A stretch of DNA of 64,000 nucleotides from Candidatus Kapaibacterium sp. (GTDB lineage: Bacteria; Bacteroidota; Ignavibacteria; Kapaibacteriales; UBA2268). The stretch spans positions 3,040,001-3,104,000 of the forward strand of contig OY762428.1 in NCBI GenBank assembly GCA_963665665.1, read 5' to 3'. The position numbers and the translations under genes were made by a program. Below, piece by piece: positions 9,701 through 24,681 of this stretch. Positions within the stretch are counted from its first letter, which is position 1. Each line of letters begins with the position of its first letter. Under the pieces are notes generated by a model. It saw only the letters and a program-made list of their open reading frames with translations, searched no databases and was not told the origin of the DNA.

Positions 9701-9737
9701 TCAACCTTAACAGCTGAATATAATTCTTATAATTAAG

Positions 9738-10111: not shown

Positions 10112-10190
10112 AAAAAAGAATATGATTGCTGTGAAAGACTTAACTGTCTCTGGCTGTAAAAATAATTATTTTTGCAGGAAGGCGAATTTT

Positions 10191-11497: not shown

Positions 11498-11529
11498 ATT
11501 ATGTAGCAACTATTTAATAAAATATAGGA

Positions 11530-11742: not shown

Positions 11743-11850
11743 CGGACACCTCGAATATAGATTATAAAATCATCAATATATTGCAAAAGCAATGGTATTA
11801 ATATATAATAAAAAAAATGAAAATTATTACAAATTCTATTGCACTTTTAA

Positions 11851-11880
11851 AAAAAGCCTCCTTGTAACCGGAGGCTTTTA
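11851..11880. terminator. Terminator hairpin downstream of the LRR gene
   Basis: AAAAGCCTCC-N8-GGAGGCTTTT with A/T tails on both sides. Confidence 0.75.
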
Positions 11881-11898
11881 AAAATAATATGTTTAAGA

Positions 11899-13335
11899 TC
11901 AAAATGACAATTTAATGTTTGGCATTTTCTTGTGCAGCTTTTCCTTTTCTTCATCTGAAAAATCATTTTTCCTGAGTTTAAGAACTTTCAGTTGCGGCAA
12001 TGAAGTAATACCATCCGGAATTGTTTTCAACCTGTTGTTATCAAGATAAATAACAGATAAATTAGGAAGTTTACTTATTTCAGGGGCAACAGTTTCAATA
12101 ATATTTTGAGTCATTTTTAATGTTTTCAAATTTGGAAGGGTAGAAATAGCTGATGGCAGTTCTTTCAACTTGTTACCCGAAAGGTCCAGCATTTCCAAAT
12201 TTTTCAGGGAGGAAATTTTTGGGTTTATCTGTGAAATTTCATTAGTCCTGGCATTAAGCATATTAAGATTTTTTAGCAGAAATATTTCATCCGGGAGATT
12301 ACTTAAATTATTTTTTGATATGTTTATTCGTATCAGCGAACTTATTTTGGAAATTCCCTTTGGTATAATGCCGTCTTTCATATCAGCTACATCCATGTCT
12401 CTTAATGATTTGAGATTTCCAATGTTTTCAGGCAGGGTTTTAATCGATGTCTGGGAAATATTCAAGTTTTTCAGAGTTGAAATATTTCCGAATTCTTTCG
12501 GAAGTGTTTCAATAGGGTTCGAACTGATATCTATAATAGAAAGATTCTTGCATTTGGCAATATTACCGGAAATACTTTCGATTTCATTTTTGCTCAGATT
12601 CAGGTTTGCCAATCCCTGAATATCAGATATTTGATCAGGAACTTCATGGACATTATTTTTTTCCATGTCGAGTGTTCGCAGGCTGCTCATCTTGTAGCAT
12701 GCACCGGGAATACTGTCGAAATTGTTATTTTCAATTTTCAATGATGACAGATTCTGTAAAGATGCCATAGATTGGGGGATATCCGACAATTCATTTTTTG
12801 CAAGTTTAAGCTCTTTCAATGCAGTGATTTTTGAAATATCGGGATTAATATCTTTAATCGCATTTTTTTCAAAATCAATTTTTTCAAGCCACGGCATTTT
12901 GGTTAAAACTTCAGGAAATTCAGAAAAATTATTTGAAGAAAGATCCAATATTTTTAAATTTTTCATACTGGCAAAATTTGCAGGGATCTTTGAAATATTA
13001 TTTTTTCCAAGGTCAAGTCTTTCAAGCTTAACAAATTTATCAATGAAATCAGGTATAGCTTCAATTTTTTTTCCTTTTAATTTAAGCCTTGTCAGGGTGG
13101 CTGCATCCTTAAGAGCATCTTCAAAACTATTATAATTTTTGCGAGCCATAGGGCCGTCTTTGCGCTTACTCCTGATAAGCTTACGTTGTTTTTTTCTTTC
13201 TTCCCTGTTTTGTTTTACTTTTTCTTTATAGTTTTTCAAAGAAGTAGCTTTTTGTTCCTGTCCGGCAAAAACATTATTAGTAAAAGTTCCTGCAAGAAGG
13301 GATAAAGCTGTCAACAATAATATAAGGGATTTCAT
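11899..13335 (-). CDS. Secreted leucine-rich repeat protein
   Basis: About 17 LxxLxLxxNxLxxLP repeats; signal peptide from MKSLILLL (ATG 13335, TGAGGA RBS); basic coiled N-terminal region. Confidence 0.9.
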   Translation of the reverse strand: MKSLILLLTALSLLAGTFTNNVFAGQEQKATSLKNYKEKVKQNREERKKQRKLIRSKRKDGPMARKNYNSFEDALKDAATLTRLKLKGKKIEAIPDFIDKFVKLERLDLGKNNISKIPANFASMKNLKILDLSSNNFSEFPEVLTKMPWLEKIDFEKNAIKDINPDISKITALKELKLAKNELSDIPQSMASLQNLSSLKIENNNFDSIPGACYKMSSLRTLDMEKNNVHEVPDQISDIQGLANLNLSKNEIESISGNIAKCKNLSIIDISSNPIETLPKEFGNISTLKNLNISQTSIKTLPENIGNLKSLRDMDVADMKDGIIPKGISKISSLIRINISKNNLSNLPDEIFLLKNLNMLNARTNEISQINPKISSLKNLEMLDLSGNKLKELPSAISTLPNLKTLKMTQNIIETVAPEISKLPNLSVIYLDNNRLKTIPDGITSLPQLKVLKLRKNDFSDEEKEKLHKKMPNIKLSF

Positions 13336-13396
13336 TTTAGTCCTCATCAAAATTAAAAGTAAGTTAAATAGATAACACATATTATACAATAATAAT

Positions 13397-14896
13397 TTAA
13401 TTTTTTCTTTTATCAATGGCAAAAACTTTTTCCGTAATTCTTGATAATCTTACGAAAGGCAGGCCAATTAATAAATACACCGCAGCTATCATTATTCCGA
13501 TACCGAAGTAATCGTAGTATGTGGCAGCAAGCCTGCTGTATAGTTTTGTCAATTCAACTAAAGTTATGACGGACACAAGGGAAGAATCTTTCAACAAAGA
13601 AATAAAATCATTTGTAATTGGTGGTATAACCAGCCTGACAGCCTGCGGAAGGATAATGTGCCTGAGGGATTGATATTTTGTCATTCCAAGGGAAATAGCC
13701 GCTTCGGTTTGCCCTCTTGGTACAGAATTCAGCCCTGCACGATAATTCTCAGCCTCGTAGGCTGCATAGTTCAGCCCAAGCCCGATAACTGCCGCCATAA
13801 ATGGAGATAATTTGATTCCTATTGTAGGGAGTGCGTAAAATATAAATATCAATTGAATCAGAAGCGGGGTTCCCCTGATAATTTCGATATAGCTAACAGC
13901 AAGCCAGGAGAAAGGAGCCGGGGCATATACACGGGTTAATGCAAGGAACAGTCCGAATAGTATAGCAAGGATCATGGCAAAAATCGAAATCCCGAGTGTC
14001 ATCAATGCAGCTTCCCCGATCAAAGGAAGAAAGCCAATGTATTGATGCAATTTTACACTGAAATTTACTTCGTTTCCCTGTGATGCAACAAACCTGTCAA
14101 ATTCTGTAGGTGAAATATCAACTTCATCATGATCGTTGAAAAATAATTTCATCTTATAATTCCACAGGTTCCATTTGCCGTAGATTTCCCTTAGCTGTCC
14201 GCTGGCTGCAAGTTCATATATGGCTTTGTTTACTTTGTTAAGTAGAACTGTGTCTTCCTTTCGAAGTGCAATCCCATATTCTACATCACCAACGGGCGGC
14301 CCTACAAGTTCAAATTCAGGATTCCAGGAGCAATAATAAAGTGCTATGGGAGCATCAACAAGAGCTATGTTTATTCTGCCGTTAATCATATCGGTGAAGG
14401 CATTCACTTCGCCTTCATAGGTAAGAACATCAATATCACCTTCATCAAGAAGTATTCTTTCGGCAAGTGAATTTTTTAGGCATCCCACGGTTTGGCCATT
14501 AAGGTCATCGAGGGAATTTATTCCCTGTGTCCCCCTGACAACAACGATTTGCTCGTATGTTTTGTAGTAGGGTATCGAAAAACTTACTACTTTTTCTCTG
14601 TCGCCCGTTATTTCCAATCCGTTCATGGCAGCATCGTAATTCCCGCTTTGCAATCCCGGAATTAGTCCGTCCCACTGATTTTGGATAAATACAGCTTTCA
14701 TACCCATTTGCGCGGCAATAGCATTAGCAATGTCAACTTCAAAACCAATATTCTTAGATAATATCGAAGGGTCCTGAAAAATATAAGGTGCGTTCCCTTC
14801 TGCGTCGGCAGCCCAGCGGAACTCAGGCAACTCTTGTGATTTTAATGAAGAAATTGCAAAAAGTGTCAGGAATAATATTTTCAGGATTGAATTCAT
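13397..14896 (-). CDS. Polar amino acid ABC transporter, fused substrate-binding and permease subunit
   Basis: GFEVDIA/WDGLIPGL binding domain; RGTPLLIQL and EAAISLGMT (EAA) permease motifs. Confidence 0.92.
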   Translation of the reverse strand: MNSILKILFLTLFAISSLKSQELPEFRWAADAEGNAPYIFQDPSILSKNIGFEVDIANAIAAQMGMKAVFIQNQWDGLIPGLQSGNYDAAMNGLEITGDREKVVSFSIPYYKTYEQIVVVRGTQGINSLDDLNGQTVGCLKNSLAERILLDEGDIDVLTYEGEVNAFTDMINGRINIALVDAPIALYYCSWNPEFELVGPPVGDVEYGIALRKEDTVLLNKVNKAIYELAASGQLREIYGKWNLWNYKMKLFFNDHDEVDISPTEFDRFVASQGNEVNFSVKLHQYIGFLPLIGEAALMTLGISIFAMILAILFGLFLALTRVYAPAPFSWLAVSYIEIIRGTPLLIQLIFIFYALPTIGIKLSPFMAAVIGLGLNYAAYEAENYRAGLNSVPRGQTEAAISLGMTKYQSLRHIILPQAVRLVIPPITNDFISLLKDSSLVSVITLVELTKLYSRLAATYYDYFGIGIMIAAVYLLIGLPFVRLSRITEKVFAIDKRKN

Positions 14897-14897
14897 A

Positions 14898-15755
14898 TTA
14901 AATGTCCACTCGTATGTTCAGATAATCCCTTGTTCTTTTGTCACGAGGATTCGAGAAAATGGTTTCGGCGCTTCCTGTTTCAATAATCTGTCCGCTTTCC
15001 ATATATGCTACTCTGTCCGATATGTTTTTTGCAAAATCAATAGCATGAGTTACGATCACTTGTGTCATTCCTTCTTCATGAAGGTTTTTCATTACTTCTG
15101 TAAGCTCTCCTATCAGTTCGGGGTCAAGGGCTGATGTTGGCTCATCGTAAAGCATTACCATGGGGTTCATTGCAAGTGCCCTTGCAATAGCAACTCTTTG
15201 TGCCTGTCCGCCTGATATCTCTGTGGGGTAACGGTCGGCAAAGCGTTCCATACCAACTTTTCTTAAAAGGTCGAAAGCATTATCGCTGGCATCCTTTTTA
15301 TTTTCTCCCTTCACAATAAGCGGCGCTACCCGTACATTTTCAAGAACTGACAAATGAGGAAAAAGATTTAATCCCTGGAACAGCATTCCCACCCGCGACC
15401 TAACCAAACATGCTTTCTCGTCGAGTTCAGAATGCCTTCTGCTGCTCAGCTTTTTGTCAGGAATAACATAAGCTATTTTATTCATTATTTCCCTGATCAT
15501 GTTATCCTGTTTCTTTTTTTCATCACATTTATCCCTGTCCAGTGTGATGCCGTCAATCTCTATACTTCCTTTGTCAGGTATTTCCAGGCAGTTCATGCAC
15601 CTGAGCAAAGTGGTTTTGCCGCAGCCGCTTCTTCCTATAATTGATAATAATTCGCCTTTTTTTATTTCCAGTTCAAGGCCTTTTAAAATATGATTATCAT
15701 TAAAATATTTATGAAGGCTGGTGATTTTTATTAAATTTTCTGAAATAAAAGCCAT
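14898..15755 (-). CDS. Amino acid ABC transporter ATP-binding protein (GlnQ-like)
   Basis: GRSGCGKTT, ISGGQAQRVAIARAL, DEPTSALDPE. Confidence 0.92.
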   Translation of the reverse strand: MAFISENLIKITSLHKYFNDNHILKGLELEIKKGELLSIIGRSGCGKTTLLRCMNCLEIPDKGSIEIDGITLDRDKCDEKKKQDNMIREIMNKIAYVIPDKKLSSRRHSELDEKACLVRSRVGMLFQGLNLFPHLSVLENVRVAPLIVKGENKKDASDNAFDLLRKVGMERFADRYPTEISGGQAQRVAIARALAMNPMVMLYDEPTSALDPELIGELTEVMKNLHEEGMTQVIVTHAIDFAKNISDRVAYMESGQIIETGSAETIFSNPRDKRTRDYLNIRVDI

Positions 15756-16037
15756 TTTTTTTACAGATTAAGATTTTATTAATATCGTATAGTTAAGTAT
15801 CAAATAATTCCCGTGATTTTTCCATACGGAATATATTAAATTTCTCCGTATAATTATAAAAAAAATATTTTGAAGTATAATTTTTGTAACAATATTGCGC
15901 AAAACAGTAGTATTCCTTTGGAAATTAAAATGGATAATACTAAATTATTTTTAGGGATAATAAGTATTTTTTGAAATATTACCAAATCTTCATATTTTTA
16001 TCAACATAATTGAATTGTTTTTCAAAAAGGGATTACA

Positions 16038-16271
16038 ATGAGTTTTAAATACAAAAAACCAGAATTGAAAGTATTAAATGATGATTCGATGTTATTTTGT
16101 AATAACGGAACATCGGCTCAAGCTGTCGGGCCGTCATATCAATGTATATCAGGAACTTCAGTCAATCCGGTACTTTGCACCGACGGTAGCACAAATGACG
16201 GGGTTTTTGTTCAGTGCGACAGCGGTGGATCTGCATTTGGTTTTGCCTGCGCAGTCGGCGGAACAGATTAA
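16038..16271 (+). CDS. Candidate RiPP precursor peptide 1 (YKKPEL leader, 5x CxxG)
   Basis: 77 aa; every Cys is in CxxG (CNNG, CISG, CTDG, CDSG, CAVG); first gene of the rSAM cassette. Confidence 0.85.
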   Translation: MSFKYKKPELKVLNDDSMLFCNNGTSAQAVGPSYQCISGTSVNPVLCTDGSTNDGVFVQCDSGGSAFGFACAVGGTD

Positions 16272-16368
16272 TCAGCTTTGATCATTGTAATAAATATTGA
16301 CCAATGTTATAAAATATTTTGTGTATAGATAATAAAACAGCGTGAAAAAAGTTTGAAATTAAGAATAA

Positions 16369-16403
16369 AGCCGTATTTGAATGTTACGGCTATTTTTTTT
16401 TTT
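16369..16403 (+). terminator. Internal terminator or attenuator after precursor 1
   Basis: AGCCGTA-N9-TACGGCT followed by an 11-nt T-run. Confidence 0.65.
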
Positions 16404-16459
16404 ATTAAATTATATGTTTAAAAAGTAGTAATGTATTTACAACAATAAATGAGGCAGAA

Positions 16460-16744
16460 ATGGCAAACAACCCTATTGCAAACCCGATGATAGTTCACAG
16501 GGTGGAGGATGATGACTGGGCGGTTCTATTTGATCCCGACGCTAACGAAACTTACGCTCTCGATCCTGTTAGTTCTTTTGTGTGGCAATTATTGGACGGT
16601 AAGCACAGCAAGGAAGAAATTCTGGCAAAACTGGAAAAAGAATGTGAGGATGGAATTCCCGAAGAAGCTGCAACAGACCTGGATGAGTTTCTTACAGAAC
16701 TGGAAGCAAAAGCTCTTGTTGGATACGAGCAGGCAATTGGTTAA
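16460..16744 (+). CDS. scmD: PqqD-family RiPP recognition element (SynChlorMet ScmD-like)
   Basis: 94 aa; AVLFDPD..TYALDPVSSFVWQLLDGKHS..EIL...DLDEFLTELEAKALV is the PqqD winged-helix pattern; GAGG RBS. Confidence 0.88.
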   Translation: MANNPIANPMIVHRVEDDDWAVLFDPDANETYALDPVSSFVWQLLDGKHSKEEILAKLEKECEDGIPEEAATDLDEFLTELEAKALVGYEQAIG

Positions 16745-16746
16745 TT

Positions 16747-17880
16747 ATGAAAATTGAACGCACTCCTAAAAGCCTTGACCTTGAAATTACAAGCAAGTGC
16801 AACCTAAGGTGTTCTTATTGCTCTCACTTCAATAGCGAAGGTGATACCGATACCGATTTAAGCACTGATGAATGGCTGCAATTCTTCGAAGAGCTGAAAG
16901 AATGCAACGTTATGGATGTTACTCTTTCTGGTGGCGAACCATTCATGAGAAAAGATATCCGTATCCTGCTTGACGGGATAATAAAAAATAGAATGAGGTT
17001 CGGATTTCTTACGAATGGTATTCTTTTTAATGATGACCTGGCTGAATATATTAAAACAACAGGCCGATGCAACAGTATCCAGGTTTCAATCGACGGCCCC
17101 GGCCCTGAAATTCATGATGCTTCGCGTGGTAAGGGAAGCTTTGAAAAAGCAATCGCCGGGCTTAAAACGATAATGAGACACGGCCTTCCTGCCACGGTAC
17201 GTGTTACGATAAACAAGCACAACTATAAAAAACTTCCTGAAATAGCTGAAATGTTGCTTGAAGAAGTAGGGCTTCATTCATTTTCAACAAACGCAGCTTC
17301 TCATCTCGGGCTTTGCCGTACTAATAAAGACGATGTTCAGCTTGGTGTGGAAGAATATACTGAATCAATGCAGACGATATTTACACTTGTTGAAAAGTAT
17401 GGCAACAGGATAAATGCCCAGGCAGGCCCTCTTGCATCAGGCAAGCAATGGATGGAAATGGAAAAAGCCCGGCAGAATAATTTAGATAATCTTCCCGGAT
17501 GCGGATATCTTACAAGTTGTGGCGGGATTTTCGCAAAAATGGCAATTCAGGCTGACGGATCAATGGTACCGTGTTCGCAGTTGCCGCACATGAAACTTGG
17601 TAAGGTCAACGTGGACAGCCTTGCAGATGTATGGCTGAATCATCCTGAGCTTAAACGCCTGCGTGAAAGAAGAGATATTCCGCTTGGTACATTTGACTCA
17701 TGCAAGGGCTGTTCGTATATACCTTATTGCAGGGGCGGATGCCCGGCACTGGCATATACCCTGAACGGAGATGAGAATGTTCCTTCTCCGGAATCATGCT
17801 ACAGGAATTTTCTTGCTGCGGGTGGAAGATTGCCGGTTTTAGATGATAACGAGCCATTTTTTAGTCCGGGATGTTGCTGA
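16747..17880 (+). CDS. scmE: Radical SAM/SPASM peptide maturase (ScmE-like)
   Basis: CNLRCSYC; SGGEPF; SPASM cysteines SCGG...VPC...CKGCSYIPYCRGGCP...SC. Confidence 0.88.
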   Translation: MKIERTPKSLDLEITSKCNLRCSYCSHFNSEGDTDTDLSTDEWLQFFEELKECNVMDVTLSGGEPFMRKDIRILLDGIIKNRMRFGFLTNGILFNDDLAEYIKTTGRCNSIQVSIDGPGPEIHDASRGKGSFEKAIAGLKTIMRHGLPATVRVTINKHNYKKLPEIAEMLLEEVGLHSFSTNAASHLGLCRTNKDDVQLGVEEYTESMQTIFTLVEKYGNRINAQAGPLASGKQWMEMEKARQNNLDNLPGCGYLTSCGGIFAKMAIQADGSMVPCSQLPHMKLGKVNVDSLADVWLNHPELKRLRERRDIPLGTFDSCKGCSYIPYCRGGCPALAYTLNGDENVPSPESCYRNFLAAGGRLPVLDDNEPFFSPGCC

Positions 17881-18026
17881 TGAAAATAAAATTTAGCATC
17901 ACTATCTTAAATATATACCAAACATAAAATACGTTTCCTGGATAGTTTGGTTTAACAGTGGATTAAATATAAATATTGTTTTTTGAATTTGTTCATTACA
18001 GTAAAAATTTTGAAAATTGGATTATT

Positions 18027-18302
18027 ATGAAAAAGAAATTTAGCTATACCAGACCATCGCTATCATCATTGTCAGATGAAATATCTCAATTCTGTAATGT
18101 AGGAACAGGAGCAACTTTAGCTGATACTCCTGCTATTCAGTGTACTGTTGGTGGGGATGCACAGCTGATTTGTGTTGCCGGTACCGGTTTTTCCAGTACG
18201 TATCCACATTGCGCTAATGGCCCTGCTGATTCAAAACTTGCATGTTCAACAGGATCAGGGGACACTAATCCCAGCTGTAATGTTGGCAATTCACCAGTTT
18301 AA
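18027..18302 (+). CDS. Candidate RiPP precursor peptide 2 (YTRPSL leader, 6x CxxG)
   Basis: From ATG 18027: MKKKFSYTRPSLSSL..., then CNVG, CTVG, CVAG, CANG, CSTG, CNVG; lies between the two rSAM genes. Confidence 0.85.
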   Translation: MKKKFSYTRPSLSSLSDEISQFCNVGTGATLADTPAIQCTVGGDAQLICVAGTGFSSTYPHCANGPADSKLACSTGSGDTNPSCNVGNSPV

Positions 18303-18329
18303 TATATTAACAATAAATACTTAATAATT

Positions 18330-19460
18330 ATGAGCGAAGAAAAAAATACAGAATTTAAAGTACCGGAATGCGGTTATCCGCTGAGCCAGATATATTTTTA
18401 CATGACTGAAGGATGCAACCTGAAATGCCGTCACTGCTGGATAGAACCGAAATTCCAGGCTTCCGGCAATAGTAAATGGCCCTCTATTGAGTTTGACCTT
18501 TTCAAGGATATATGCTATCAGGGCAGGGAACTTGGAATGAACTCAGTTAAACTAACCGGCGGGGAGCCACTGATAAATCCTGATATTGACAAAATACTTG
18601 ATTTCATTTATGAGGAGAAGTTCAGGCTGACAATTGAAACTAACGGCATCGAACTGACACCTGAAATTTGTGAAAAGATTGCCCGGTGTGAAGGCACTTT
18701 TGTTTCAATCAGCCTTGATGGCTCAACAGCAGAAGAACACGAATGGGTTCGCGGTGTTCCGGGTTGTTTCGAAGCAGCATTGCAAGGCGCACGGAATCTT
18801 GTAGCCGTGGGAATAAGGCCGCAGTTTATAATGTCGATAATGAAAAGGAATGCACACCAGATAGAAGATATTATTGAACTTGCCCGGAAAGAAAACGCCG
18901 AGTCGGTTAAATACAACCTGGTAACACCTACTGCACGTGGGGAGCAAATGCACGAGGCTGGCGAAACTCTGTCGATTGAAGAATTGATCCGTATTGGTAA
19001 ATGGGTGGAAGATGAATTGCAGCCAAAGTACAAAGATGTCAGGCTTCACTATTCTCATCCGGTTGCTTTCAAGCCTTTTGGCAAAATGTTTGAAAGACCA
19101 TTGGGACGTTGCGGTATATTCGGTATTATCGGAGTGCTCGGAAATGGTAAATATGCTCTTTGCGGTATCGGTGAAACTGTCCCTGAACTTGTTTTCGGCG
19201 ACGCGAGAAAAGATAAACTCGCAGATGTTTGGAATAATAACCAGGTACTTAATGATATTCGTAAAGGCTTACCAAAAGATTTGAATGGTATTTGCGGGGA
19301 TTGTCTCGTTAAAAACAAATGCCTTGGTTCCTGTGTAGCCATGAATTATTATCGTCATCACGATCTGTTTGCTCCTTTCTGGTATTGCGAGGAAGCACTT
19401 AAAGCCGGACTTTTCCCCAAAACCAGGATCAAGCCGGGATCGCCATTTGAAAAGGTATAA
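18330..19460 (+). CDS. scmF: Radical SAM/SPASM peptide maturase (ScmF-like)
   Basis: CNLKCRHC; TGGEPL; RCGI...ALCGIG...CGDCLVKNKCLGSCVA...WYC. Confidence 0.88.
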   Translation: MSEEKNTEFKVPECGYPLSQIYFYMTEGCNLKCRHCWIEPKFQASGNSKWPSIEFDLFKDICYQGRELGMNSVKLTGGEPLINPDIDKILDFIYEEKFRLTIETNGIELTPEICEKIARCEGTFVSISLDGSTAEEHEWVRGVPGCFEAALQGARNLVAVGIRPQFIMSIMKRNAHQIEDIIELARKENAESVKYNLVTPTARGEQMHEAGETLSIEELIRIGKWVEDELQPKYKDVRLHYSHPVAFKPFGKMFERPLGRCGIFGIIGVLGNGKYALCGIGETVPELVFGDARKDKLADVWNNNQVLNDIRKGLPKDLNGICGDCLVKNKCLGSCVAMNYYRHHDLFAPFWYCEEALKAGLFPKTRIKPGSPFEKV

Positions 19461-19472
19461 AACAAATACTAA

Positions 19473-21281
19473 ATGCGTTTATGGTATAAATATCTGAAGC
19501 AGGGGCTTTCCCGTAAGCTGCCTGTCGATAAGTTCAATGAAGAATCGAACTACGGCAGGCTCAGGGATAATATTAAACTATTATTTCCTCCGATAAAAAA
19601 ACACTGGAAGGCCGGGCTGATATCAATGTTTGTTCTGGTTCTGTCATCAGTCCTGACTTATCCCCTGCCAATGATAAACAAATATTTTATCGATGACGTT
19701 TTGCTGAAAAAGAGGATTGACCTTGTTGTTCCGGTAGTATTACTATTAACGGGAATTGGCCTTGCTTCGTATCTGACGGGCGTGTTGAAAGGCTTTTATA
19801 ATCAGCGATTCACACAGGAAGTGATACTCGATCTGCAAAAGACAATGATCGATAAGGTTTTGTCACTCCCAAAATTCTTCTTTGATAAAAATCGATCCGG
19901 CTATCTTATGTCAAGGATATCCGGAGATGTTCACGGTGTAAACTGGTTTCTTTCCGGCCCTATGGTTCAAATGTTTCTCCAGGCTATGAAATTCATTGGT
20001 GGTGTTTATTTCCTGATATTCCTGGAATGGCGTCTGGCAATTCCGGTTATTCTTACCTTGCCGATACCATTTTTCGCAATGCGTTATTTTGCTAAGCGGT
20101 CTTATATTATGAGCCATTATACCAGCGAAATGAATGCAAAAACAAACGCCAGCCTGCATGAAACTGTTAATACTGTTTCTCTTATTAAATCTTTTGCCAA
20201 CGAGAAAAAAGCATCAAAGTCCCTATTCAGGATGTTGAGAAAAAAAGTTAACATCGGGTATGAACAAAACAGTATGAATTCTCTTAGCAGTTTGATCAAC
20301 CAGCTAATGCCACAGGTTGCCAAATTTGCTGTTATGCTTTTTGGCGCTTACTGGGTAATCAGCGGCGAGTGGCAATTGGGATCTCTTATCGCTTTCCAAT
20401 CATACTTATCCTACGTGTACGGGCCGGTAAATCAGCTTTCTTCCAGTATGAACCAATTGCAGACAGCCCGGGCAACAATGGACAGGGTTGCTACTATTCT
20501 CGGAATGGATTCCGAAGAGAATACTGACAGCGGAGATGAAATTACGAAACTGACCGGAAGCATAGAATTTGATAATGTAAGCTTCGGGTATGATAAGAAA
20601 AAACCTGTTTTATCTAATCTTTCCTTTAATATAAAAGCAGGGGAACAATGGGCTGTGATCGGCCCAAGCGGTATTGGTAAAACGACGCTTATCAGCCTGC
20701 TTTTAAAATTTTATTCCACTGATTCCGGAGATATTCTATTTGATGATAAGTCCTGTAAAGATATCAATGTGCGTTCTTTAAGAAGAAGGCTTGGCTATGT
20801 GGCACAATCAACGAGCCTGCAAACAGGAACAATTCTGAAAAATCTGAAATACGGAAATCCCGGAGCAAGTGTAGAAGATATAGTTAAAGCAGCAAAGATT
20901 GCCGGAATTCATGAATTTATTGAAGAACTGCCCGAAAAATATAATACCCATATAGAAGAAGGCGGCGCTAACCTTTCCGAAGGCCAGAAACAAAGGCTTT
21001 CTATTGCAAGAGCTCTTGTTCTGAATCCTGATATTTATATACTGGATGAACCAACTGCTTCAGTAGATAACCTGACTGAACAGTCAATTTACAAAGCTCT
21101 TCCTGAAACAATAAAAAATAAGACAACAATCACTATAGCACACAGGTTAAATACTATTAAATCAGCAGAAAAAATATTATTTTTGAGAAAGAATAAAATT
21201 CCTCTTATCGGTTCACATAATGAATTGAAAGGCGATGATGATTACATGGAATTTTTCGAAACTATAAATAATTGTAACTGA
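19473..21281 (+). CDS. ABC exporter, fused transmembrane and ATP-binding domains (no C39 peptidase domain)
   Basis: Six-TM domain; GPSGIGKTT, LSEGQKQR, ILDEPT. Confidence 0.92.
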   Translation: MRLWYKYLKQGLSRKLPVDKFNEESNYGRLRDNIKLLFPPIKKHWKAGLISMFVLVLSSVLTYPLPMINKYFIDDVLLKKRIDLVVPVVLLLTGIGLASYLTGVLKGFYNQRFTQEVILDLQKTMIDKVLSLPKFFFDKNRSGYLMSRISGDVHGVNWFLSGPMVQMFLQAMKFIGGVYFLIFLEWRLAIPVILTLPIPFFAMRYFAKRSYIMSHYTSEMNAKTNASLHETVNTVSLIKSFANEKKASKSLFRMLRKKVNIGYEQNSMNSLSSLINQLMPQVAKFAVMLFGAYWVISGEWQLGSLIAFQSYLSYVYGPVNQLSSSMNQLQTARATMDRVATILGMDSEENTDSGDEITKLTGSIEFDNVSFGYDKKKPVLSNLSFNIKAGEQWAVIGPSGIGKTTLISLLLKFYSTDSGDILFDDKSCKDINVRSLRRRLGYVAQSTSLQTGTILKNLKYGNPGASVEDIVKAAKIAGIHEFIEELPEKYNTHIEEGGANLSEGQKQRLSIARALVLNPDIYILDEPTASVDNLTEQSIYKALPETIKNKTTITIAHRLNTIKSAEKILFLRKNKIPLIGSHNELKGDDDYMEFFETINNCN

Positions 21282-21284
21282 CAG

Positions 21285-22160
21285 ATGCAGCAGGCAAAAC
21301 AAATAGAACAATTTTATCTGAAACTTTCGGATGGCAGCAAATGGGGATTCAATTCAGCTCCTGAATTGAAAGAATGGTTTAGCATATTTGCCAGAATAAT
21401 GTCTTTGAAAAAAGATAACTCTGATGTGGATTATTTGTTTAATATCCGGCCCAAAAACGGAAGGGAAATTCCTGCCGGAGTTGATGAAAGCTGGGATTCT
21501 TTCAGGCAAAGCGGGGCATATACTATATGGAGCAAAAAAGGGGAAAAACAGTTTTTAATTGAAATAAACAAAGAGTTTATCGACCACCCCGAGATTAGAG
21601 TGATAAATATGTGGTCAACATTGAAGGCTCTATATAAATTTTATGCTGAGAACGGTGGAGGCCCGGTTCATAGCGGAATGGCAGCCCTGAATGGCAAAGC
21701 TATACTGATAGCTGCCCCGGGGGGTACCGGGAAATCAACATCCATACGCAGGCTGCCGGATTATTGGAAAAAAATGTGCGATGACACAACCCTGATAGTA
21801 AAAAAAGATGATAATTTCTTTGTTCATCCCATGCCTACATGGAGTGACCATCTATGGGAGCATAATTTTACTACTTTCGATACTTCAAGGGGATTCCCAT
21901 TAGCAGCTGTTTTCTTTCTGAAGCAGTCCGGCACTGACAAAGTTACCCCGATTTCCAGGCCTGAAGGCATTCAGTTGCTTTTAAGTTCAGTTAAACAGGT
22001 TTTTCAAACTTATGTTGATAAGTTGAAGGATAATGAAAAGTCTGAAATGGCTATGAAACTGTTTGATAACACCTGTAATATTGTTGGAAAAACACCATGC
22101 TACAGGCTTGAAGCTACATTGAACGGGGATTTCTGGGAAGAAATTGAAAAGGTATTATAG
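21285..22160 (+). CDS. scmC: ScmC-like HPr-kinase-related P-loop protein
   Basis: VHSG...ILIAAPGGTGKST...MCDDTTLI matches the HprK His / Walker A / DD layout; PMPTWSD. Confidence 0.8.
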   Translation: MQQAKQIEQFYLKLSDGSKWGFNSAPELKEWFSIFARIMSLKKDNSDVDYLFNIRPKNGREIPAGVDESWDSFRQSGAYTIWSKKGEKQFLIEINKEFIDHPEIRVINMWSTLKALYKFYAENGGGPVHSGMAALNGKAILIAAPGGTGKSTSIRRLPDYWKKMCDDTTLIVKKDDNFFVHPMPTWSDHLWEHNFTTFDTSRGFPLAAVFFLKQSGTDKVTPISRPEGIQLLLSSVKQVFQTYVDKLKDNEKSEMAMKLFDNTCNIVGKTPCYRLEATLNGDFWEEIEKVL

Positions 22161-22759
22161 TGGAAAAGCACAAGCCGCAATATAATACAAGTGTCGGGCC
22201 AAGCATGTACCCGACAATGAAAAGCGGCGATGCATATATCCTTAAAGAAATATCTTCTATTGATGAAATATGCCGGGGAGATGTAATTGTTTTTCCCCAC
22301 CCTGACGAACCAATTAATGTTGTTCACAGAATTATTAGGATTTATCCCGAAGGTTTTCAAACCAGGGGAGATAATAATAACCGTAAAGATCCCTATATTG
22401 TGAAAAAGGATGATATTATCGGTGTGGTGGGCAAGGTTATCAGGAAAAATAAAAGATATACTATTCATGGCGGAAATGCGGGATTATTCATCCACAGGAT
22501 GGCTTGGGCCAGGAAATATTCCCGGCCCTATATTGTAAAGCCACTGAAGTTTTTATTGAATTTGCTGATCAGATCAAAAATATTCTTCATTTTCGGAAAT
22601 TTCTTTTCAACTTCAATCACAAAAATTAACCGAATGGGTTCCGAGCAATTTATCTTAAGTGTAAATAAAAAACCGGTTGGAAAAAAAGAATCAAAGGAAT
22701 CTGCGTGGATAATTAGTTTCCCTTATAGTTTGTTTATTAATCCGAAGAAATTACCATGA
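22160..22759 (+). CDS. S24/S26 family signal-peptidase-like protease
   Basis: GPSMYPTM, RGDVIVF, VVHRI, TRGDNN...DP; GTG start overlaps the upstream TAG. Confidence 0.85.
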   Translation: MEKHKPQYNTSVGPSMYPTMKSGDAYILKEISSIDEICRGDVIVFPHPDEPINVVHRIIRIYPEGFQTRGDNNNRKDPYIVKKDDIIGVVGKVIRKNKRYTIHGGNAGLFIHRMAWARKYSRPYIVKPLKFLLNLLIRSKIFFIFGNFFSTSITKINRMGSEQFILSVNKKPVGKKESKESAWIISFPYSLFINPKKLP

Positions 22760-22980
22760 AATACCGAAAACCAAAAATATACAGACTTTTCCCATCGAAA
22801 ATAGACATAAGCGCCTGTATGGACGGTGAGCAGGCTTCGAGCATGGCCTGCGTATCCGGCCCGGAGGCATCCAGCGGGTGTAAAACCGGGGCTGCTGCCG
22901 GTACGGCATGTAAGGATGGTTCCGCTGCCGGATTCAGTTGCAACAGCGGTGCAGGATTCGAGGAATGGGAAAGGAAGTAA
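22756..22980 (+). CDS. Candidate RiPP precursor peptide 3 (YRKPKI leader, 5x CxxG)
   Basis: CMDG, CVSG, CKTG, CKDG, CNSG; ATGA overlap with the peptidase stop. Confidence 0.85.
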   Translation: MKYRKPKIYRLFPSKIDISACMDGEQASSMACVSGPEASSGCKTGAAAGTACKDGSAAGFSCNSGAGFEEWERK

Positions 22981-23034
22981 ATTGTTTTATAATAATAACA
23001 TAGTGTATTATTAATCATATAAGGCATTAATAAA

Positions 23035-23814
23035 ATGAAAATATCAATATTAACCGAAAATACAGCAGCGCCTTATTTCCTTGCGGAATTTGGTTTTTCA
23101 TGCTTTATAGAAACAAACGGGAATAATTTTCTTTTTGATTTAGGCGCCACGGACATTTATCTGAAAAATGCCGAAAAACTTGGCATTGATATAGATAATT
23201 GCAATAATGTTATTCTCAGCCATGGCCACTGGGATCATGGAAACGGCCTTAAATACATTAAGGGAAAAAATCTATTATGTCATCCGGGGGCTTTTCGTAA
23301 AAGATACCACAAAGGTGATGATAATAATATCGGCCTTGAAATGACTAAAGAAGAAATTGAGACAAATTTCTGCCTGACAAGCTCGGCGAAACCATATTAT
23401 ATTGATGAAAATATAATTTTCCTTGGAGAAATTCCCAGGCTGAATGATTTTGAATCAAAGGAATCAGATTTTATACTCTCCGACGGAAGCGAGGATTTTG
23501 TAAGTGATGATACCGCCATGGCCATTGTTGAAGACGGCAGGCTAATCATCATTTCCGGGTGCGCCCATTCCGGAATTTGTAATATTATAGAATATGCGCG
23601 TAATATTTCCGGCATTTCGGACGTGAAAGCTGTGCTGGGCGGCTTCCATTTAAAAAATGAAAACCGTCAGTTGGATGAAACAATTAAATATTTTAAAAAA
23701 TTAAATGCAAAGCAGCTTTATCCCTGCCACTGTACTCAATTGCCTGCTATGGCAGCTTTTTATAACAATTTTAAAATTAACAGGATAATGGCAGGAAACA
23801 CATTGGAAATTTAG
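23035..23814 (+). CDS. MBL-fold metallo-hydrolase (COG1237-like)
   Basis: SHGHWDHG, GCAHSG, GGFHL, PCHCT. Confidence 0.9.
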   Translation: MKISILTENTAAPYFLAEFGFSCFIETNGNNFLFDLGATDIYLKNAEKLGIDIDNCNNVILSHGHWDHGNGLKYIKGKNLLCHPGAFRKRYHKGDDNNIGLEMTKEEIETNFCLTSSAKPYYIDENIIFLGEIPRLNDFESKESDFILSDGSEDFVSDDTAMAIVEDGRLIIISGCAHSGICNIIEYARNISGISDVKAVLGGFHLKNENRQLDETIKYFKKLNAKQLYPCHCTQLPAMAAFYNNFKINRIMAGNTLEI

Positions 23815-23823
23815 GAAAATAAA

Positions 23824-24681
23824 ATGAAAACATATATTGATTGTATTCCATGCTTTATGAACCAGGCGCTAAGGGCCGGAAGAATATCCACAAGCGATGA
23901 TATAATACTTAAAAAAATAATGGATAACGTAGGCGGGAAGCTGAAAGATGTATCCCTTACCGAAGTACCGCCCCGTTCGGCAATGATCATATACGATGAA
24001 ATATTTCGCCAGACGGGAATAGAAGACCCTTACAAAAAAATCAAAAAGGAAAGTATAGACCTTGCTAAAAGTATTCTGGGGCAAATCAGAAATATGGTGG
24101 AATCTGCCCCCGACCCGTTACTTGCTGCCGTAAAAGCAGCAATTGCAGGTAATATTATTGATTTTGGTGCCTGCGAGGATTTTGATATTAAAAAGGATGT
24201 AAAGGCATCTATGGATATGGACTTATCTATAAACGATTATGAGGTTTTCAAAGAAAAAATAAATTATGCACGTACAGTCCTTTACCTTGGGGATAATGCC
24301 GGGGAAACTGTTTTTGACAGGTTGCTAATCGAGAATATTGACGCAAGGGTGGTTTATGCTGTCAGGGAGAAACCTATTATCAATGATGCAGTGATAGAAG
24401 ATGCAGTTGATTCCGGCCTGGCCGATATATGCGAGATAATTTCTTCAGGCAGTACTGCTCCTGCAACTATTCTTGAAGAATGTAATGAACGGTTTTTAGG
24501 TCTTTATCACGGCGGAGCTGATATTATCATCAGCAAAGGGCAGGGAAATTACGAGAGTTTATCTGATAGTAACGAAAATATTTTCTTCCTTCTTAAAACT
24601 AAATGCAGCGTTATTGCCCGCGACCTTGATACCGAAACAGGTGCACTTGTATTGAAAGCCGGTAAAAATTATGATTTGTAA
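23824..24681 (+). CDS. DUF89/ARMT1-like damage-control phosphatase
   Basis: DCIPC, AGNIIDFG, DNAGE, PIINDA, KGQGNYE. Confidence 0.9.
   Translation: MKTYIDCIPCFMNQALRAGRISTSDDIILKKIMDNVGGKLKDVSLTEVPPRSAMIIYDEIFRQTGIEDPYKKIKKESIDLAKSILGQIRNMVESAPDPLLAAVKAAIAGNIIDFGACEDFDIKKDVKASMDMDLSINDYEVFKEKINYARTVLYLGDNAGETVFDRLLIENIDARVVYAVREKPIINDAVIEDAVDSGLADICEIISSGSTAPATILEECNERFLGLYHGGADIIISKGQGNYESLSDSNENIFFLLKTKCSVIARDLDTETGALVLKAGKNYDL

What the first reader, a model, noticed from the sequence alone, without database searches (positions are those of the whole stretch)
16038..22980. Complete SynChlorMet-type RiPP cassette with its probable precursor peptides
Seen: one co-oriented block of peptide 1, PqqD/RRE, rSAM/SPASM, peptide 2, rSAM/SPASM, ABC exporter, HprK-like protein, S26 peptidase and peptide 3. 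The last three genes overlap at start/stop codons. Known: the PqqD + two SPASM enzymes + ScmC combination is the SynChlorMet cassette; as I recall the TIGRFAM descriptions, its precursor was unidentified and its product unknown. Inference: this is a full pathway (recognition, two radical modifications, phosphorylation, leader removal, export) for a multicyclic peptide that may be undescribed.
Basis: partly seen in the sequence, partly recalled or inferred. Interest (0 to 1): 0.93.

Follow-up and report, generated by a model that had tools for sequence, protein, structure and literature searches.

The report
Radical-SAM peptide gene cluster with precursors
This is a gene cluster of a catalogued but chemically unstudied type that modifies and exports small cysteine-rich peptides, and it carries three of about twenty such peptide genes found in this genome.

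Summary
All nine co-oriented ORFs lie at the stated coordinates. ScmE, ScmF and ScmC pass their curated NCBIfam cut-offs. ScmD is the best hit but scores below its cut-off.

The three small ORFs are real precursor genes:
- They share a K-Y-x-K-P-x-L leader and 5-6 CxxG units.
- A profile built only from peptides beside Scm genes in other organisms finds them at E 1e-8 to 1e-12 among 66,534 small frames.
- Such peptides lie in 28 of 51 ScmE loci from many phyla and in 0 of 22 other rSAM/SPASM loci.
- A natural pep2 allele differs at 20 codons, 11 of them synonymous, with no indels and all Cys kept.

NCBIfam holds TIGR04252 "ScmA". That model is narrow and misses all three window peptides.

I found no paper on the system, so the product is still unknown. 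Thioether cross-links, phosphorylation, leader cleavage and export are inferences.

The genome has a second cassette and 21 such peptides, 14 of them away from any maturase.

Verdict: a new member of a known kind, of moderate interest.

The parts
16038..16271 (+). pep1, a ScmA-like precursor of 77 aa. Leader is FKYKKPELKVL; the core has 5 Cys in C-x-x-G units.
   Evidence: ORF. Strict genome-wide descriptor hit. E 9.5e-9 against a profile trained only on peptides from other organisms' Scm loci. No TIGR04252 hit at E<=10.
16369..16402 (+). Terminator-like hairpin after pep1: a 7-bp stem AGCCGTA/TACGGCT with a 9-nt loop, followed by a run of 11 T.
   Evidence: Sequence. The hairpin is present in both the MFE and the centroid fold. 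The consensus scan missed it, probably because its loop limit is 8 nt. Function is inferred.
16460..16744 (+). ScmD, a free-standing PqqD-type leader-recognition protein (RRE) of 94 aa.
   Evidence: TIGR04248 85.8 bits (cut-off 100), the best NCBIfam hit. Pfam PqqD 58.2 bits against 23.4. 30-row alignment A4.
16747..17880 (+). ScmE, a radical SAM/SPASM maturase of 377 aa with no fused RRE.
   Evidence: TIGR04250 546.8 bits against 400. Pfam Radical_SAM and SPASM. The CxxxCxxC motif at residues 18-25 and seven C-terminal Cys are invariant in 8 orthologues. Closest solved protein is SkfB, E 3.3e-22.
18027..18302 (+). pep2, a ScmA-like precursor of 91 aa from the ATG. Leader is FSYTRPSLSSL; the core has 6 Cys.
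   Evidence: E 4.5e-9. A natural allele in run X4 differs at 20 codons, 11 synonymous and 9 not, with no indel and all Cys kept. It translates exactly to database protein P0016.
18330..19460 (+). ScmF, the second radical SAM/SPASM maturase, 376 aa.
   Evidence: TIGR04251 519.5 bits against 400. Pfam Radical_SAM and SPASM. Solved relatives are BlsE, SkfB, CteB and PqqE.
19473..21281 (+). ABC exporter, a half-transporter with fused permease and ATPase (602 aa). It has no peptidase domain.
   Evidence: Pfam ABC_membrane and ABC_tran only. It matches only positions 154-700 of the 710-position NHLP peptidase/permease/ATPase exporter model, so the peptidase part is missing.
21285..22160 (+). ScmC, a P-loop protein of HprK/PEPCK-like fold (291 aa). 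A putative ATP-dependent tailoring enzyme.
   Evidence: TIGR04249 227 bits against 125. No Pfam family. AF2 model pLDDT 93.1. Top PDB folds are PEP carboxykinases, E about 1e-7. The family profile matches HprK/P 1jb1 at E 6.7e-6 over the His...GxGKS...DD stretch. H129, G149, K150, D166 and D167 are invariant in 21 sequences.
22160..22759 (+). S26-type (archaeal/SipW-like) serine peptidase without an N-terminal membrane anchor (199 aa). The putative leader peptidase.
   Evidence: TIGR02228 70.7 bits against 51.85. S15, H56, D71 and D77 are conserved in at least 90% of 26 Scm-linked homologues. Only 14 residues precede the Ser, and the maximum 19-residue hydropathy is 1.52, at residue 131.
22756..22980 (+). 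pep3, a ScmA-like precursor of 74 aa. Leader is MKYRKPKIYRL; the core has 5 Cys spaced 10-11 residues apart. It is translationally coupled to S26.
   Evidence: E 9.5e-13. It is 62% identical over 69 aa to the peptide at the same position, with the same 4-nt overlap with S26, in a Lentisphaerota MAG cassette (L028).

Best explanation
Window 16038-22980 is a complete SynChlorMet-type (Scm) RiPP gene cluster that carries three of its own precursor genes. The precursors are divergent members of the ScmA family. Each has an N-terminal leader with the motif (K)-Y/W-x-K-P-x-[LIV]-x-x-[LFI], and about 17 residues later a core of 5-6 units of C-x-x-G-x-x-(A) spaced about 10-11 residues apart.

Proposed mechanism (inferred, not shown):
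1. The free-standing PqqD-type protein ScmD binds the leader motif and presents the core to the two radical SAM/SPASM enzymes ScmE and ScmF.
2. These enzymes act once per Cys unit, most likely forming Cys-to-carbon thioether bridges of the sactionine or ranthionine type. The two enzymes would have different site or carbon specificities.
3. ScmC, a P-loop enzyme with the HprK/P His...GxGKS...DD active-site signature, uses a nucleotide to tailor the peptide, most likely by phosphorylation.
4. The anchor-less Ser/His S26 peptidase removes the leader inside the cell.
5. The ABC half-transporter exports the product.

The same genome has a second, more elaborate Scm cassette and 21 ScmA-like genes in two leader classes. 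The two cassettes therefore probably also mature peptides encoded elsewhere in the genome.
For: Enzyme identity: ScmE, ScmF and ScmC are above their curated cut-offs, and ScmD is the best hit. The Pfam domains agree.

Precursor identity:
- In the genome-wide strict descriptor, 25 hits in 13 ORFs are all of this family.
- An HMM of 15 seeds finds 21 ORFs at E<=1.3e-4 among 66,534 small frames. The next hits are at E 0.11 and 0.27.
- A profile of 34 peptides taken only from other organisms' Scm loci finds pep3, pep2 and pep1 at E 9.5e-13, 4.5e-9 and 9.5e-9.
- Family peptides at >=20 bits occur in 28 of 51 ScmE loci from Lentisphaerota, Chlorobiaceae, Desulfobacterota, Nitrospirota, Chloroflexota, methanogens and others. 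They occur in 0 of 22 non-Scm rSAM/SPASM loci. A looser scan adds 6 more loci.
- 14 of the 15 loci with ScmD, ScmE, ScmF, ScmC and S26 have a family peptide. 27 of 35 peptide ORFs lie within 500 nt of an Scm gene, typically between ScmF and ScmC.
- One member of the same alignment passes the curated ScmA model at 88.6 bits.

Coding evidence: the pep2 allele in run X4 has 24 substitutions in 20 codons, 11 synonymous, with 0 indels. The 142 nt upstream carry 7 indels. pep3 is 62% identical to its positional orthologue in another phylum.

Family regularity:
- Pro is invariant by the selection regex and carries no independent weight.
- Y 89% or W 11%.
- The first Cys lies 16-20 residues after Y in 134 of 143 sequences.
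- Cys spacing is 10 or 11 in 524 of 688 intervals.
- Gly at C+3 in 88%.

ScmD-leader binding: the ScmD alignment folded with pep1 residues 1-40 scored ipSAE 0.41 in each of 3 runs against a best control of 0.00, verdict 'weak support'. The mark was reached by 58 of 80 solved complexes and 2 of 110 mismatched pairs. At a score of 0.60 or under, only 7 of those 80 solved complexes and both mismatches passed. The runs agree in at least 90% of contacts and the partner's pLDDT is at least 51.

Other parts: ScmC, S26, and an ABC exporter without a peptidase domain.

Thioether reading: the closest solved relative of ScmE is the sactisynthase SkfB, and CteB is also listed. A different orphan SPASM family was recently shown to put ranthionine bridges on a repeat-Cys substrate (PMC13692751; abstract and section 8 read).
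Against: - No chemistry was tested. ScmE and ScmF also resemble PqqE, MftC, AhbD/NirJ and BlsE at similar scores, so sequence does not fix the reaction.
- None of the three peptides reaches the curated ScmA model TIGR04252 even at E<=10.
- ScmD is below its curated cut-off.
- 17 of 51 ScmE loci showed no clear family peptide (15 none, 2 only partial). Six of the 15 (L033, L050, L051, L056, L057, L078) have ample flank.
- The complex prediction is only weak, and it could reflect memory of solved RRE-leader complexes.
- pep1 and pep2 have no counterpart in the closest cassette, L028, so they may be later additions.
- pep1 is followed by a terminator-like hairpin and may be a separate transcript.
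- The training set for one search was chosen with a profile that included this genome's peptides, so that test is not fully independent.
Confidence: 0.8

Rival explanations
1. The cluster and its precursors are as described, but the radical chemistry is not thioether formation. ScmE and ScmF might make carbon-carbon or ether cross-links, epimerise residues, or otherwise transform Cys. The conserved Gly at C+3 and Ala at C+6 would then be the reacting or structural positions.
For: The next-best NCBIfam models for ScmE and ScmF include WgkB, PqqE and MftC, which as I recall do C-C or other chemistry, and AhbD and NirJ. BlsE, a decarboxylase, is ScmF's closest solved relative. No acceptor residue such as Asp, Asn or Thr is conserved at a fixed offset from Cys.
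Against: Cys is the one invariant repeated residue. ScmE's closest solved relative is the sactisynthase SkfB, at E 3.3e-22. A repeat-Cys substrate of another orphan SPASM family receives ranthionines (PMC13692751, abstract).
Confidence: 0.2
2. Only pep3 is the cassette's true substrate. pep1, pep2 and the 14 orphan genes would be dispersed paralogues that are unmodified, differently used or decaying.
For: - Only pep3 has a positional orthologue in the closest cassette, L028.
- pep1 is followed by a terminator-like hairpin.
- A paralogue at window 3239-3496 (-) is a pseudogene with two in-frame stops.
- The orphans sit beside unrelated housekeeping genes.
Against: - pep1 and pep2 keep the full leader motif and Cys register.
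- pep2 shows an excess of synonymous change and no indels between two strains.
- Other cassettes also carry 2-3 peptides, for example L037, L038 and L015.
- The two leader classes in the genome match the two cassettes. All 4 peptides in cassette 2 have the F-x-W-M type and all 3 in the window have the K-P-x-L type.
Confidence: 0.15
3. The small ORFs are chance open frames in Gly/Ser/Cys-rich-looking DNA, and the cassette's substrate lies elsewhere.
For: No curated family hit for any of the three. No RNA evidence is available.
Against: - Genome-wide specificity of the descriptor.
- Cross-phylum co-location with Scm genes, against 0 of 22 controls.
- 62% identity of pep3 to a Lentisphaerota orthologue.
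- The codon-level pattern of the pep2 allele.
- 1,172 cluster representatives at E<=1e-3 in a 1.84-billion-protein library, mostly 55-110 aa and matched from residue 1-3.
Confidence: 0.01

Closest known systems
SynChlorMet (Scm) cassette of TIGRFAMs/NCBIfam: ScmA TIGR04252, ScmC TIGR04249, ScmD TIGR04248, ScmE TIGR04250, ScmF TIGR04251
   Same: It has the same enzyme set, and all genes are co-oriented. ScmE, ScmF and ScmC score above their cut-offs. The peptides share the leader and CxxG core of a bona fide ScmA, the L014 peptide at 88.6 bits.
   Different: - The three peptides are not detected by TIGR04252, and ScmD is below its cut-off.
- The cassette has three precursors instead of the usual one placed between ScmF and ScmC.
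- It also carries the ABC exporter and S26 peptidase. All six protein types were detected in only 7 of 51 loci.
- The genome holds 21 ScmA-like genes and a second cassette.
Sactipeptide and ranthipeptide systems (SkfB, CteB, PapB, as named; their chemistry is recalled) and the Crp system (PMC13692751)
   Same: SPASM-type radical SAM enzymes act on leader-tagged, Cys-rich, repetitive cores. SkfB is ScmE's closest solved relative.
   Different: - There are two paralogous maturases plus a separate RRE, rather than one enzyme with a fused RRE.
- The unit is C-x-x-G with a 10-11-residue period, not CxxxD or CxxQ/D.
- The P-loop ScmC is added.
- The cross-link type is unknown.
- Scores against the PapB, StsB and SkfB models are far below their cut-offs.
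Lasso peptide pathways with a discrete PqqD-like RRE, some of which have an HPr-kinase homologue and a sulfotransferase
   Same: The leader motif is of the Y-x-x-P-x-L type, which I recall as the lasso leader recognition motif, and it is read by a small PqqD protein. HprK-like enzymes and sulfotransferases accompany some lasso clusters (PMC4289311, one passage read). Cassette 2 of this genome has both kinds of gene.
   Different: No lasso cyclase or leader cysteine protease domain is found in any gene of the block. The core is Cys-repeat, not a lasso core. The maturases are radical SAM enzymes.
PQQ and mycofactocin pathways (PqqD/PqqE, MftB/MftC)
   Same: A free-standing PqqD-type chaperone is paired with a SPASM radical SAM enzyme acting on a small ribosomal peptide. 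PqqE and MftC are among the next-best models.
   Different: Scores are far below those families' cut-offs. The precursors are unrelated. An exporter and peptidase point to a secreted peptide rather than a cofactor.

Membership tests
SynChlorMet (Scm) cassette | ScmE radical SAM/SPASM protein (TIGR04250, cut-off 400 bits) | tested here: met
   546.8 bits, matching model positions 1-358 of 358. 546.6 bits in the genome search.
SynChlorMet (Scm) cassette | ScmF radical SAM/SPASM protein (TIGR04251, cut-off 400 bits) | tested here: met
   519.5 bits, matching model positions 1-353 of 353.
SynChlorMet (Scm) cassette | ScmC conserved protein (TIGR04249, cut-off 125 bits) | tested here: met
   227 bits, full length. 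225.5 bits in the genome search.
SynChlorMet (Scm) cassette | ScmD PqqD-related protein (TIGR04248, cut-off 100 bits) | tested here: inconclusive
   85.8 bits, below the cut-off but by far the best model (the next scores 29 bits). It is full length and directly upstream of ScmE. Pfam PqqD scores 58.2 bits against 23.4.
SynChlorMet (Scm) cassette | ScmA precursor (TIGR04252, cut-off 35 bits) | tested here: not met
   pep1, pep2 and pep3 have no hit at E<=10. The best hit in the whole genome is 15.4 bits. They are linked to ScmA only through wider profiles. The curated model also passes only 1 of the 20 peptides in alignment A1.
Sactipeptide / ranthipeptide | Cys sulfur to alpha-, beta- or gamma-carbon thioether installed by a radical SAM/SPASM enzyme | not testable with these tools
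   Only the preconditions are met: a Cys-repeat core and SPASM enzymes with SkfB and CteB as solved relatives. Scores against the PapB, StsB and SkfB models are far below their cut-offs.
Lasso peptide | Lasso cyclase (Asn-synthetase-like) and leader cysteine protease beside the RRE | tested here: not met
   No such domains in any of the nine products. Only the PqqD RRE and the Y-x-x-P-x-L-type leader are shared.
HprK/P-like P-loop kinase (for ScmC) | His...GxGKS/T P-loop...DD active-site signature on a PEPCK-like fold | tested here: met
   The family profile matches 1jb1 (HPRK protein) at E 6.7e-6 across that stretch. H129, G149, K150, D166 and D167 are invariant in 21 sequences. The fold is nearest PEP carboxykinases. 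Kinase activity and substrate are not testable here. TIGR04352 HprK_rel_A scores only 17.2 bits against a cut-off of 200.
S26 signal peptidase I, archaeal/SipW type | Ser/His catalytic boxes. Canonical members also have an N-terminal membrane anchor. | tested here: inconclusive
   TIGR02228 scores 70.7 bits against 51.85. S15, H56, D71 and D77 are conserved in at least 90% of 26 sequences. The anchor is absent: only 14 residues precede the Ser and no 19-residue window exceeds 1.52 in hydropathy. The catalytic core is therefore met and the topology is atypical.

The most novel reading that the evidence does not exclude
The two Scm cassettes act as hubs for a genome-wide library. In this reading, 21 leader-tagged Cys-repeat peptides are matured in cis and in trans. 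Fifteen have the K-Y-x-K-[P/L]-x-L leader class and six have the Y-x-x-P-E-V-x-x-F-x-W-M class. Each leader class is read by its own ScmD. Fast local turnover of precursor alleles, as in the pep2 segment, diversifies the products. This would be a prochlorosin-like combinatorial system built on radical SAM chemistry, yielding a new periodically cross-linked scaffold with one bridge per 10-11 residues.
Probability: 0.3. Interest if true: 0.75.

Novelty: new member of a known kind. Interest (0 to 1): 0.5.

Why it matters
The Scm cassette is a widely distributed RiPP pathway for which I found no paper at all, so its product and chemistry are open. It occurs in Chlorobiaceae, Desulfobacterota, Lentisphaerota, Chloroflexota, methanogens and others.

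This locus is a compact, complete test case. It has three precursors, one RRE, two maturases, a kinase-like enzyme, a peptidase and an exporter in 7 kb.

The work here also shows three further things:
- The curated precursor model recognises only a small part of the family, which has 1,172 cluster representatives at E<=1e-3, so annotation pipelines will usually leave these cassettes looking precursor-less.
- The family has a sharply defined leader motif and a 10-11-residue Cys register, which predicts where to look for cross-links.
- One genome can hold about 20 such genes, most of them far from the enzymes.

Tried and rejected
- **Promoter and terminator scan of 15600-23400:** 32 sigma-70-like sites were found against 24.0 +/- 5.1 expected, and no + strand terminator. 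This was uninformative.
- **Bacteroidota-type -7 motif TANNTTTG:** 71 matches against 78.65 expected, none in the intergenic regions before pep1 or pep2. Dropped.
- **Folds of the spacers after pep2 and pep3:** no stable structure.
- **Expression:** no RNA holder was listed among the public runs, so expression could not be examined.
- **The search for homologous proteins with the peptide alignment:** only 8 proteins and no names. Its word index suits such low-complexity peptides poorly. The full HMMER scan and cluster look-up were more useful.
- **Literature:** 'SynChlorMet' gave 0 papers. TIGR04248-51 gave 0. 'ScmA' with 'radical SAM' gave 0. TIGR04252 and the model names gave 0. Four of six terms among radical SAM, precursor peptide, PqqD, Chlorobium, Syntrophobacter and Methanocella gave 0. 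One search returned 418 papers for 'ScmE'/'ScmF' as whole words; the 20 listed were all unrelated acronyms.
- **Limits of the literature search:** these searches do not cover subscription journals or authors' manuscripts. Supplementary files were not opened, so Scm could be named in a supplement, for example those of PMC13692751 or of SPASM network papers.
- **PMC13692751 (abstract and section 8 read):** it treats a different family (TIGR04463, Crp), not Scm.
- **Other papers:** for PMC4289311, PMC10114670 and PMC10352776 I read only 'find' passages. None mentions Scm.
- **Lasso-peptide reading:** rejected, because there is no cyclase or protease.
- **Selenocysteine or other recoding in the window 3239-3496 paralogue:** rejected. 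Its two in-frame stops are different codons (TAA and TGA) at non-Cys positions.
- **Orphan peptide neighbourhoods:** I looked for hidden maturases and found none. The neighbours are PFOR, rubrerythrin, ferritin, Nuo subunits, an M64 peptidase, DUF5777, YceI, AhpC and GcvT.
- **Correction:** my notebook entry 2 says 14 ORFs. A recount of that output gives 13.

Full report
**1. Observation**

| Gene | Coordinates | Length |
|---|---|---|
| pep1 | 16038-16271 | 77 aa |
| PqqD-like | 16460-16744 | 94 aa |
| rSAM/SPASM (first) | 16747-17880 | 377 aa |
| pep2 | ORF from TTG 17976; likely ATG 18027, to 18302 | 91 aa from the ATG |
| rSAM/SPASM (second) | 18330-19460 | 376 aa |
| ABC protein | 19473-21281 | 602 aa |
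| HprK-like | 21285-22160 | 291 aa |
| S26 peptidase | 22160-22759 | 199 aa |
| pep3 | 22756-22980 | 74 aa |

The last three genes overlap as stated. There is a 1-nt overlap at 22160 and a 4-nt ATGA overlap at 22756-22759. The upstream neighbour (14898-15755) lies on the minus strand, so the block starts a new transcription unit.

**2. Enzymes**

The NCBIfam and Pfam results are as follows.

| Protein | Model | Score vs cut-off (bits) |
|---|---|---|
| ScmE | TIGR04250 | 546.8 vs 400 |
| ScmF | TIGR04251 | 519.5 vs 400 |
| ScmC | TIGR04249 | 227 vs 125 |
| ScmD | TIGR04248 | 85.8 vs 100 (clear best hit, below cut-off) |
| S26 peptidase | TIGR02228 | 70.7 vs 51.85 |
| PqqD-like (ScmD) | Pfam PqqD | 58.2 vs 23.4 |

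- Pfam agrees on PqqD, Radical_SAM plus SPASM (twice), ABC_membrane plus ABC_tran, and Peptidase_S26. It has nothing for ScmC or for the peptides.
- Both maturases begin directly with the CxxxCxxC motif and have no fused RRE. ScmD is therefore the only recognition module.
- The ABC protein lacks a peptidase domain.

**3. ScmC**

- Alignment: H129, G149, K150, D166, D167, P184, T185 and W186 are invariant in 21 sequences.
- AF2 model: built on that alignment, it is confident, with pLDDT 93.1 and pTM 0.91.
- Fold matches: the best PDB matches are PEP carboxykinases, at E about 1e-7 and TM 0.44-0.51 normalised to the query.
- Sequence profile: it matches HPr kinase/phosphorylase (1jb1, E 6.7e-6; also 1ko7 and 1knx) exactly over His...GxGKS...DD.

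'HprK-like' is therefore justified for the active-site region. That ScmC phosphorylates the peptide is an inference. I recall that HprK homologues phosphorylate lasso peptides, but I did not read this here.

**4. S26 peptidase**

In 26 Scm-linked homologues, S15, M16, P18, H56, R57, G70, D71 and D77 (window numbering) are conserved in at least 90%. As I recall, this is the Ser/His arrangement of the archaeal/ER/SipW type.

Only 14 residues precede the Ser, and no 19-residue window exceeds a Kyte-Doolittle mean of 1.52. The usual N-terminal anchor is therefore missing. This fits a leader peptidase that works on the cytoplasmic side. That role is inferred.

**5. The peptides are real and form a family**

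All three have Y-x-x-P-x-[LI] near the N-terminus and 5-6 Cys, each in C-x-x-G. The evidence that they are genuine family members is as follows.

- **Strict descriptor.** Applied to 67,148 start sites of the whole genome, it returned 25 start sites in 13 ORFs, all visibly of this type.
- **Seed HMM.** An HMM of 15 seeds found 21 ORFs at E<=1.3e-4 among 66,534 stop-to-stop frames of 35-250 aa. The next hits were at E 0.11 and 0.27.
- **Outside profile.** A profile built only from 34 peptides next to Scm genes in other organisms found pep3, pep2 and pep1 at E 9.5e-13, 4.5e-9 and 9.5e-9. It found 14 ORFs in all at E<=1e-3. One caveat applies: those 34 were picked with a profile that included this genome's peptides.
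- **Whole-library scan.** In the 1.84-billion-protein library the family profile has 1,172 cluster representatives at E<=1e-3. Most are 55-110 aa and match from residue 1-3.

I also took the 144 stored hits of 130 aa or less. Of these, 143 contain the leader regex, and I analysed those 143:
- Pro is fixed by that regex, so it carries no independent weight.
- Y is 89% and W is 11%.
- K at -1 and at +2 is 63% each.
- The first Cys lies 16-20 residues after the aromatic residue in 134 of 143.
- Successive Cys are 10 or 11 apart in 524 of 688 intervals.
- Gly at C+3 is 88% and Ala at C+6 is 44%.

**6. Link to Scm enzymes across organisms**

- **Phylum sample.** ScmE above its cut-off was found in 8 of 401 genomes (this one included). 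Seven were in one other family, and none in the 6 genomes of this organism's own family. Six of those 7 loci carry a leader-plus-CxxG ORF beside the Scm genes.
- **Species-level collection.** A scan of 185,579 species genomes returned 80 loci. L028-L078 (51 loci) have an ScmE of 37-65% identity.
- **Peptide co-location.** Family peptides at >=20 bits occur in 28 of those 51 loci. They occur in 4 of 7 borderline loci (L079-L085) and in 0 of 22 loci with unrelated rSAM/SPASM genes (L086-L107).
- **Looser scan.** It adds L035, L053, L065, L067, L071 and L074, giving 34 of 51. In the controls it flags 3 ORFs in 2 loci, none with the leader motif.
- **Misses.** L039 and L076 show only partial, leaderless matches. 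Of the 15 with none, 9 are on contigs that end at or just after ScmE or ScmF. Six have ample flank (L033, L050, L051, L056, L057, L078).
- **Gene order.** The usual order is ScmD-ScmE-ScmF-peptide-ScmC-S26(-ABC). 27 of 35 peptide ORFs lie within 500 nt of an Scm gene. 14 of the 15 loci with ScmD, ScmE, ScmF, ScmC and S26 have a peptide. All six protein types were detected in 7 of 51 loci.

**7. The precursor is already catalogued, but narrowly**

- JGI names two of the retrieved homologue clusters 'SynChlorMet cassette protein ScmA'.
- NCBIfam holds TIGR04252 'SCM_precur_ScmA', with 49 positions and a cut-off of 35 bits.
- Of the 20 peptides in my alignment, 6 touch that model at E<=10. Only the L014 peptide passes, at 88.6 bits.
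- pep1, pep2, pep3 and the Lentisphaerota orthologue give nothing.
- The best hit in the whole genome is 15.4 bits.

Standard annotation would still leave this cassette without a precursor.

**8. Coding evidence from natural variation**

One contig of run X4 (a different organism label) spans the whole 7.2 kb with 77 substitutions and 8 gaps. All 40 differences that were listed fall in 17885-18294, which is the ScmE-pep2 spacer plus pep2. The 7 indels of that contig that were listed all lie in 17890-17977, in non-coding sequence.

Within pep2 there are 24 substitutions in 20 codons:
- 11 of the codon changes are synonymous and 9 are not.
- There is no indel.
- Every Cys and every CxxG Gly is kept.
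- The allele translates exactly to the independently stored protein P0016.

This is the pattern of a translated gene. It also shows that the precursor segment diverges much faster than the enzymes around it. 43 further difference rows were not shown, so the exact share of differences in this segment is a lower bound.

pep3 is 62% identical over 69 residues to the peptide that follows and overlaps S26 in the closest cassette. That cassette is L028, from a Lentisphaerota MAG, with ScmE 65%, ScmF 71% and ABC 53% identity. pep1 and pep2 have no counterpart there.

**9. ScmD-leader contact**

I folded the ScmD alignment with pep1 residues 1-40.
- Score and controls: it scored 0.41 in all three runs against a best control of 0.00, and the verdict was 'weak support'.
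- Tool calibration: 58 of 80 solved complexes and 2 of 110 mismatched pairs reach the mark. At a score of 0.60 or under, only 7 of those 80 solved complexes and both mismatches passed.
- Run agreement: the runs agree in at least 90% of contacts and the partner's pLDDT is at least 51.
- Caveat: as I recall, RRE-leader complexes have been solved, so the pass may partly reflect likeness to them.

**10. Chemistry (inferred)**

ScmE's closest solved relative is the sactisynthase SkfB (E 3.3e-22), followed by BlsE, PqqE, CteB, SuiB-like 5v1q and anSME. ScmF's closest are BlsE, SkfB, CteB and PqqE.

Cys is the only invariant repeated residue. Another orphan SPASM family has just been shown to put ranthionines on a repeat-Cys substrate (PMC13692751; abstract and section 8 read). 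On these grounds I rate thioether bridges, one per unit, as the most likely outcome. No conserved acceptor residue stands out, and the alternatives remain open.

**11. Wider genome context**

- **Second cassette.** It lies at contig positions about 1,439,720-1,448,413. It has ScmD, ScmE (491.7 bits), ScmF (461.4), ScmC (117.7, below cut-off) and S26. It also has an extra HprK-like gene, a sulfotransferase-like ORF (recognised from its sequence motif only, with no family hit), a third radical SAM gene on the other strand and four peptides.
- **Leader classes.** Its peptides, and two more at 5,279,402-5,279,959, share a distinct leader, Y-x-x-P-E-[VI]-[VI]-x-F-x-W-M. The window's three and twelve others have K-Y-x-K-[P/L]-x-L.
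- **Orphans.** SPASM, PqqD and ScmC searches find no further cassette. Fourteen peptide genes therefore stand apart from any maturase, beside unrelated genes.
- **Pseudogene.** One more copy in the window (3239-3496, minus strand) is a pseudogene with TAA and TGA in frame.

**12. Verdict**

This is a genuine, complete Scm cluster with three divergent ScmA-type precursors.

- It is a new member of a known, bioinformatically defined kind. I found nothing in print on its chemistry. Subscription papers and supplements were not searchable.
- The points that add interest are the breadth of the precursor family beyond the curated model, the sharp leader and Cys register, the roughly 20-gene precursor repertoire with two leader classes and two cassettes, and the fast-diverging pep2 segment.

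Noticed in passing
window 3239-3496 (-): An ScmA-like peptide gene with a KYRKLMI leader and five C-x-x-G units. It is interrupted by two in-frame stops, TAA and TGA, and an AAGGAG motif lies upstream. It looks like a pseudogene copy 12.5 kb from the cassette.
   Followed up: yes
L006 7720-16413 (= G000:C1:1439720-1448413): A second Scm cassette in the same genome. It has ScmD, ScmE and ScmF, an extra HprK-like gene, a sulfotransferase-like ORF, four peptides with a Y-C-x-P-E-V-x-D-F-x-W-M leader, a third radical SAM gene on the minus strand, ScmC and S26. It has no ABC exporter within the stretch read.
   Followed up: partly
G000:C1 near 1483128, 1487647, 1487983, 1489470, 1489799, 1491060, 1862381, 2398884, 3327265, 3824542, 4952715, 5279402, 5279735, 5344156: Fourteen ScmA-like peptide genes lie away from any Scm enzyme. 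Six of them are scattered over 8 kb among PFOR, rubrerythrin, ferritin and Nuo genes (L021). The others sit beside an M64 peptidase, AhpC, GcvT and similar genes. Several have Leu in place of the otherwise invariant leader Pro.
   Followed up: partly
window 17885-18294: In a close relative (run X4) the ScmE-pep2 spacer and pep2 hold at least 40 of the 77 substitutions seen over 7.2 kb, while the flanking enzyme genes are nearly identical. This is a local hot spot or an allele replacement of the precursor.
   Followed up: partly
window 16369-16402 (+): A terminator-like hairpin followed by T11 lies directly after pep1 and before ScmD. It could set a high precursor-to-enzyme transcript ratio or make pep1 a separate unit.
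   Followed up: partly
window 23035-24681 (+): Directly downstream and co-oriented are an MBL-fold hydrolase-like gene and a damage-control-phosphatase-like (DUF89-type) gene. The latter scores 198.7 bits, below its cut-off of 440. Only 54 nt separate pep3 from the first. Whether they belong to the cluster is unknown.
   Followed up: no
G000:C1:2305960-2308976 (-): Another PqqD gene (64 bits) with a weak ScmC/HprK-like match 2.6 kb away. It may be an HPr-rel-A-type system. L027 was fetched but not analysed.
   Followed up: no
P0009, P0010, P0011, P0018, P0028: Long proteins of 770-1594 aa match the peptide core profile in 5-11 separate stretches. Proteins built from many C-x-x-G units therefore exist elsewhere. 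P0013 (264 aa) shows such a repeat array without the leader.
   Followed up: no
L015 (G262:C118) 9130-17827: This Chlorobiaceae-family cassette has two nearly identical precursor genes and a duplicated ScmF, so cassette architecture varies between relatives.
   Followed up: no
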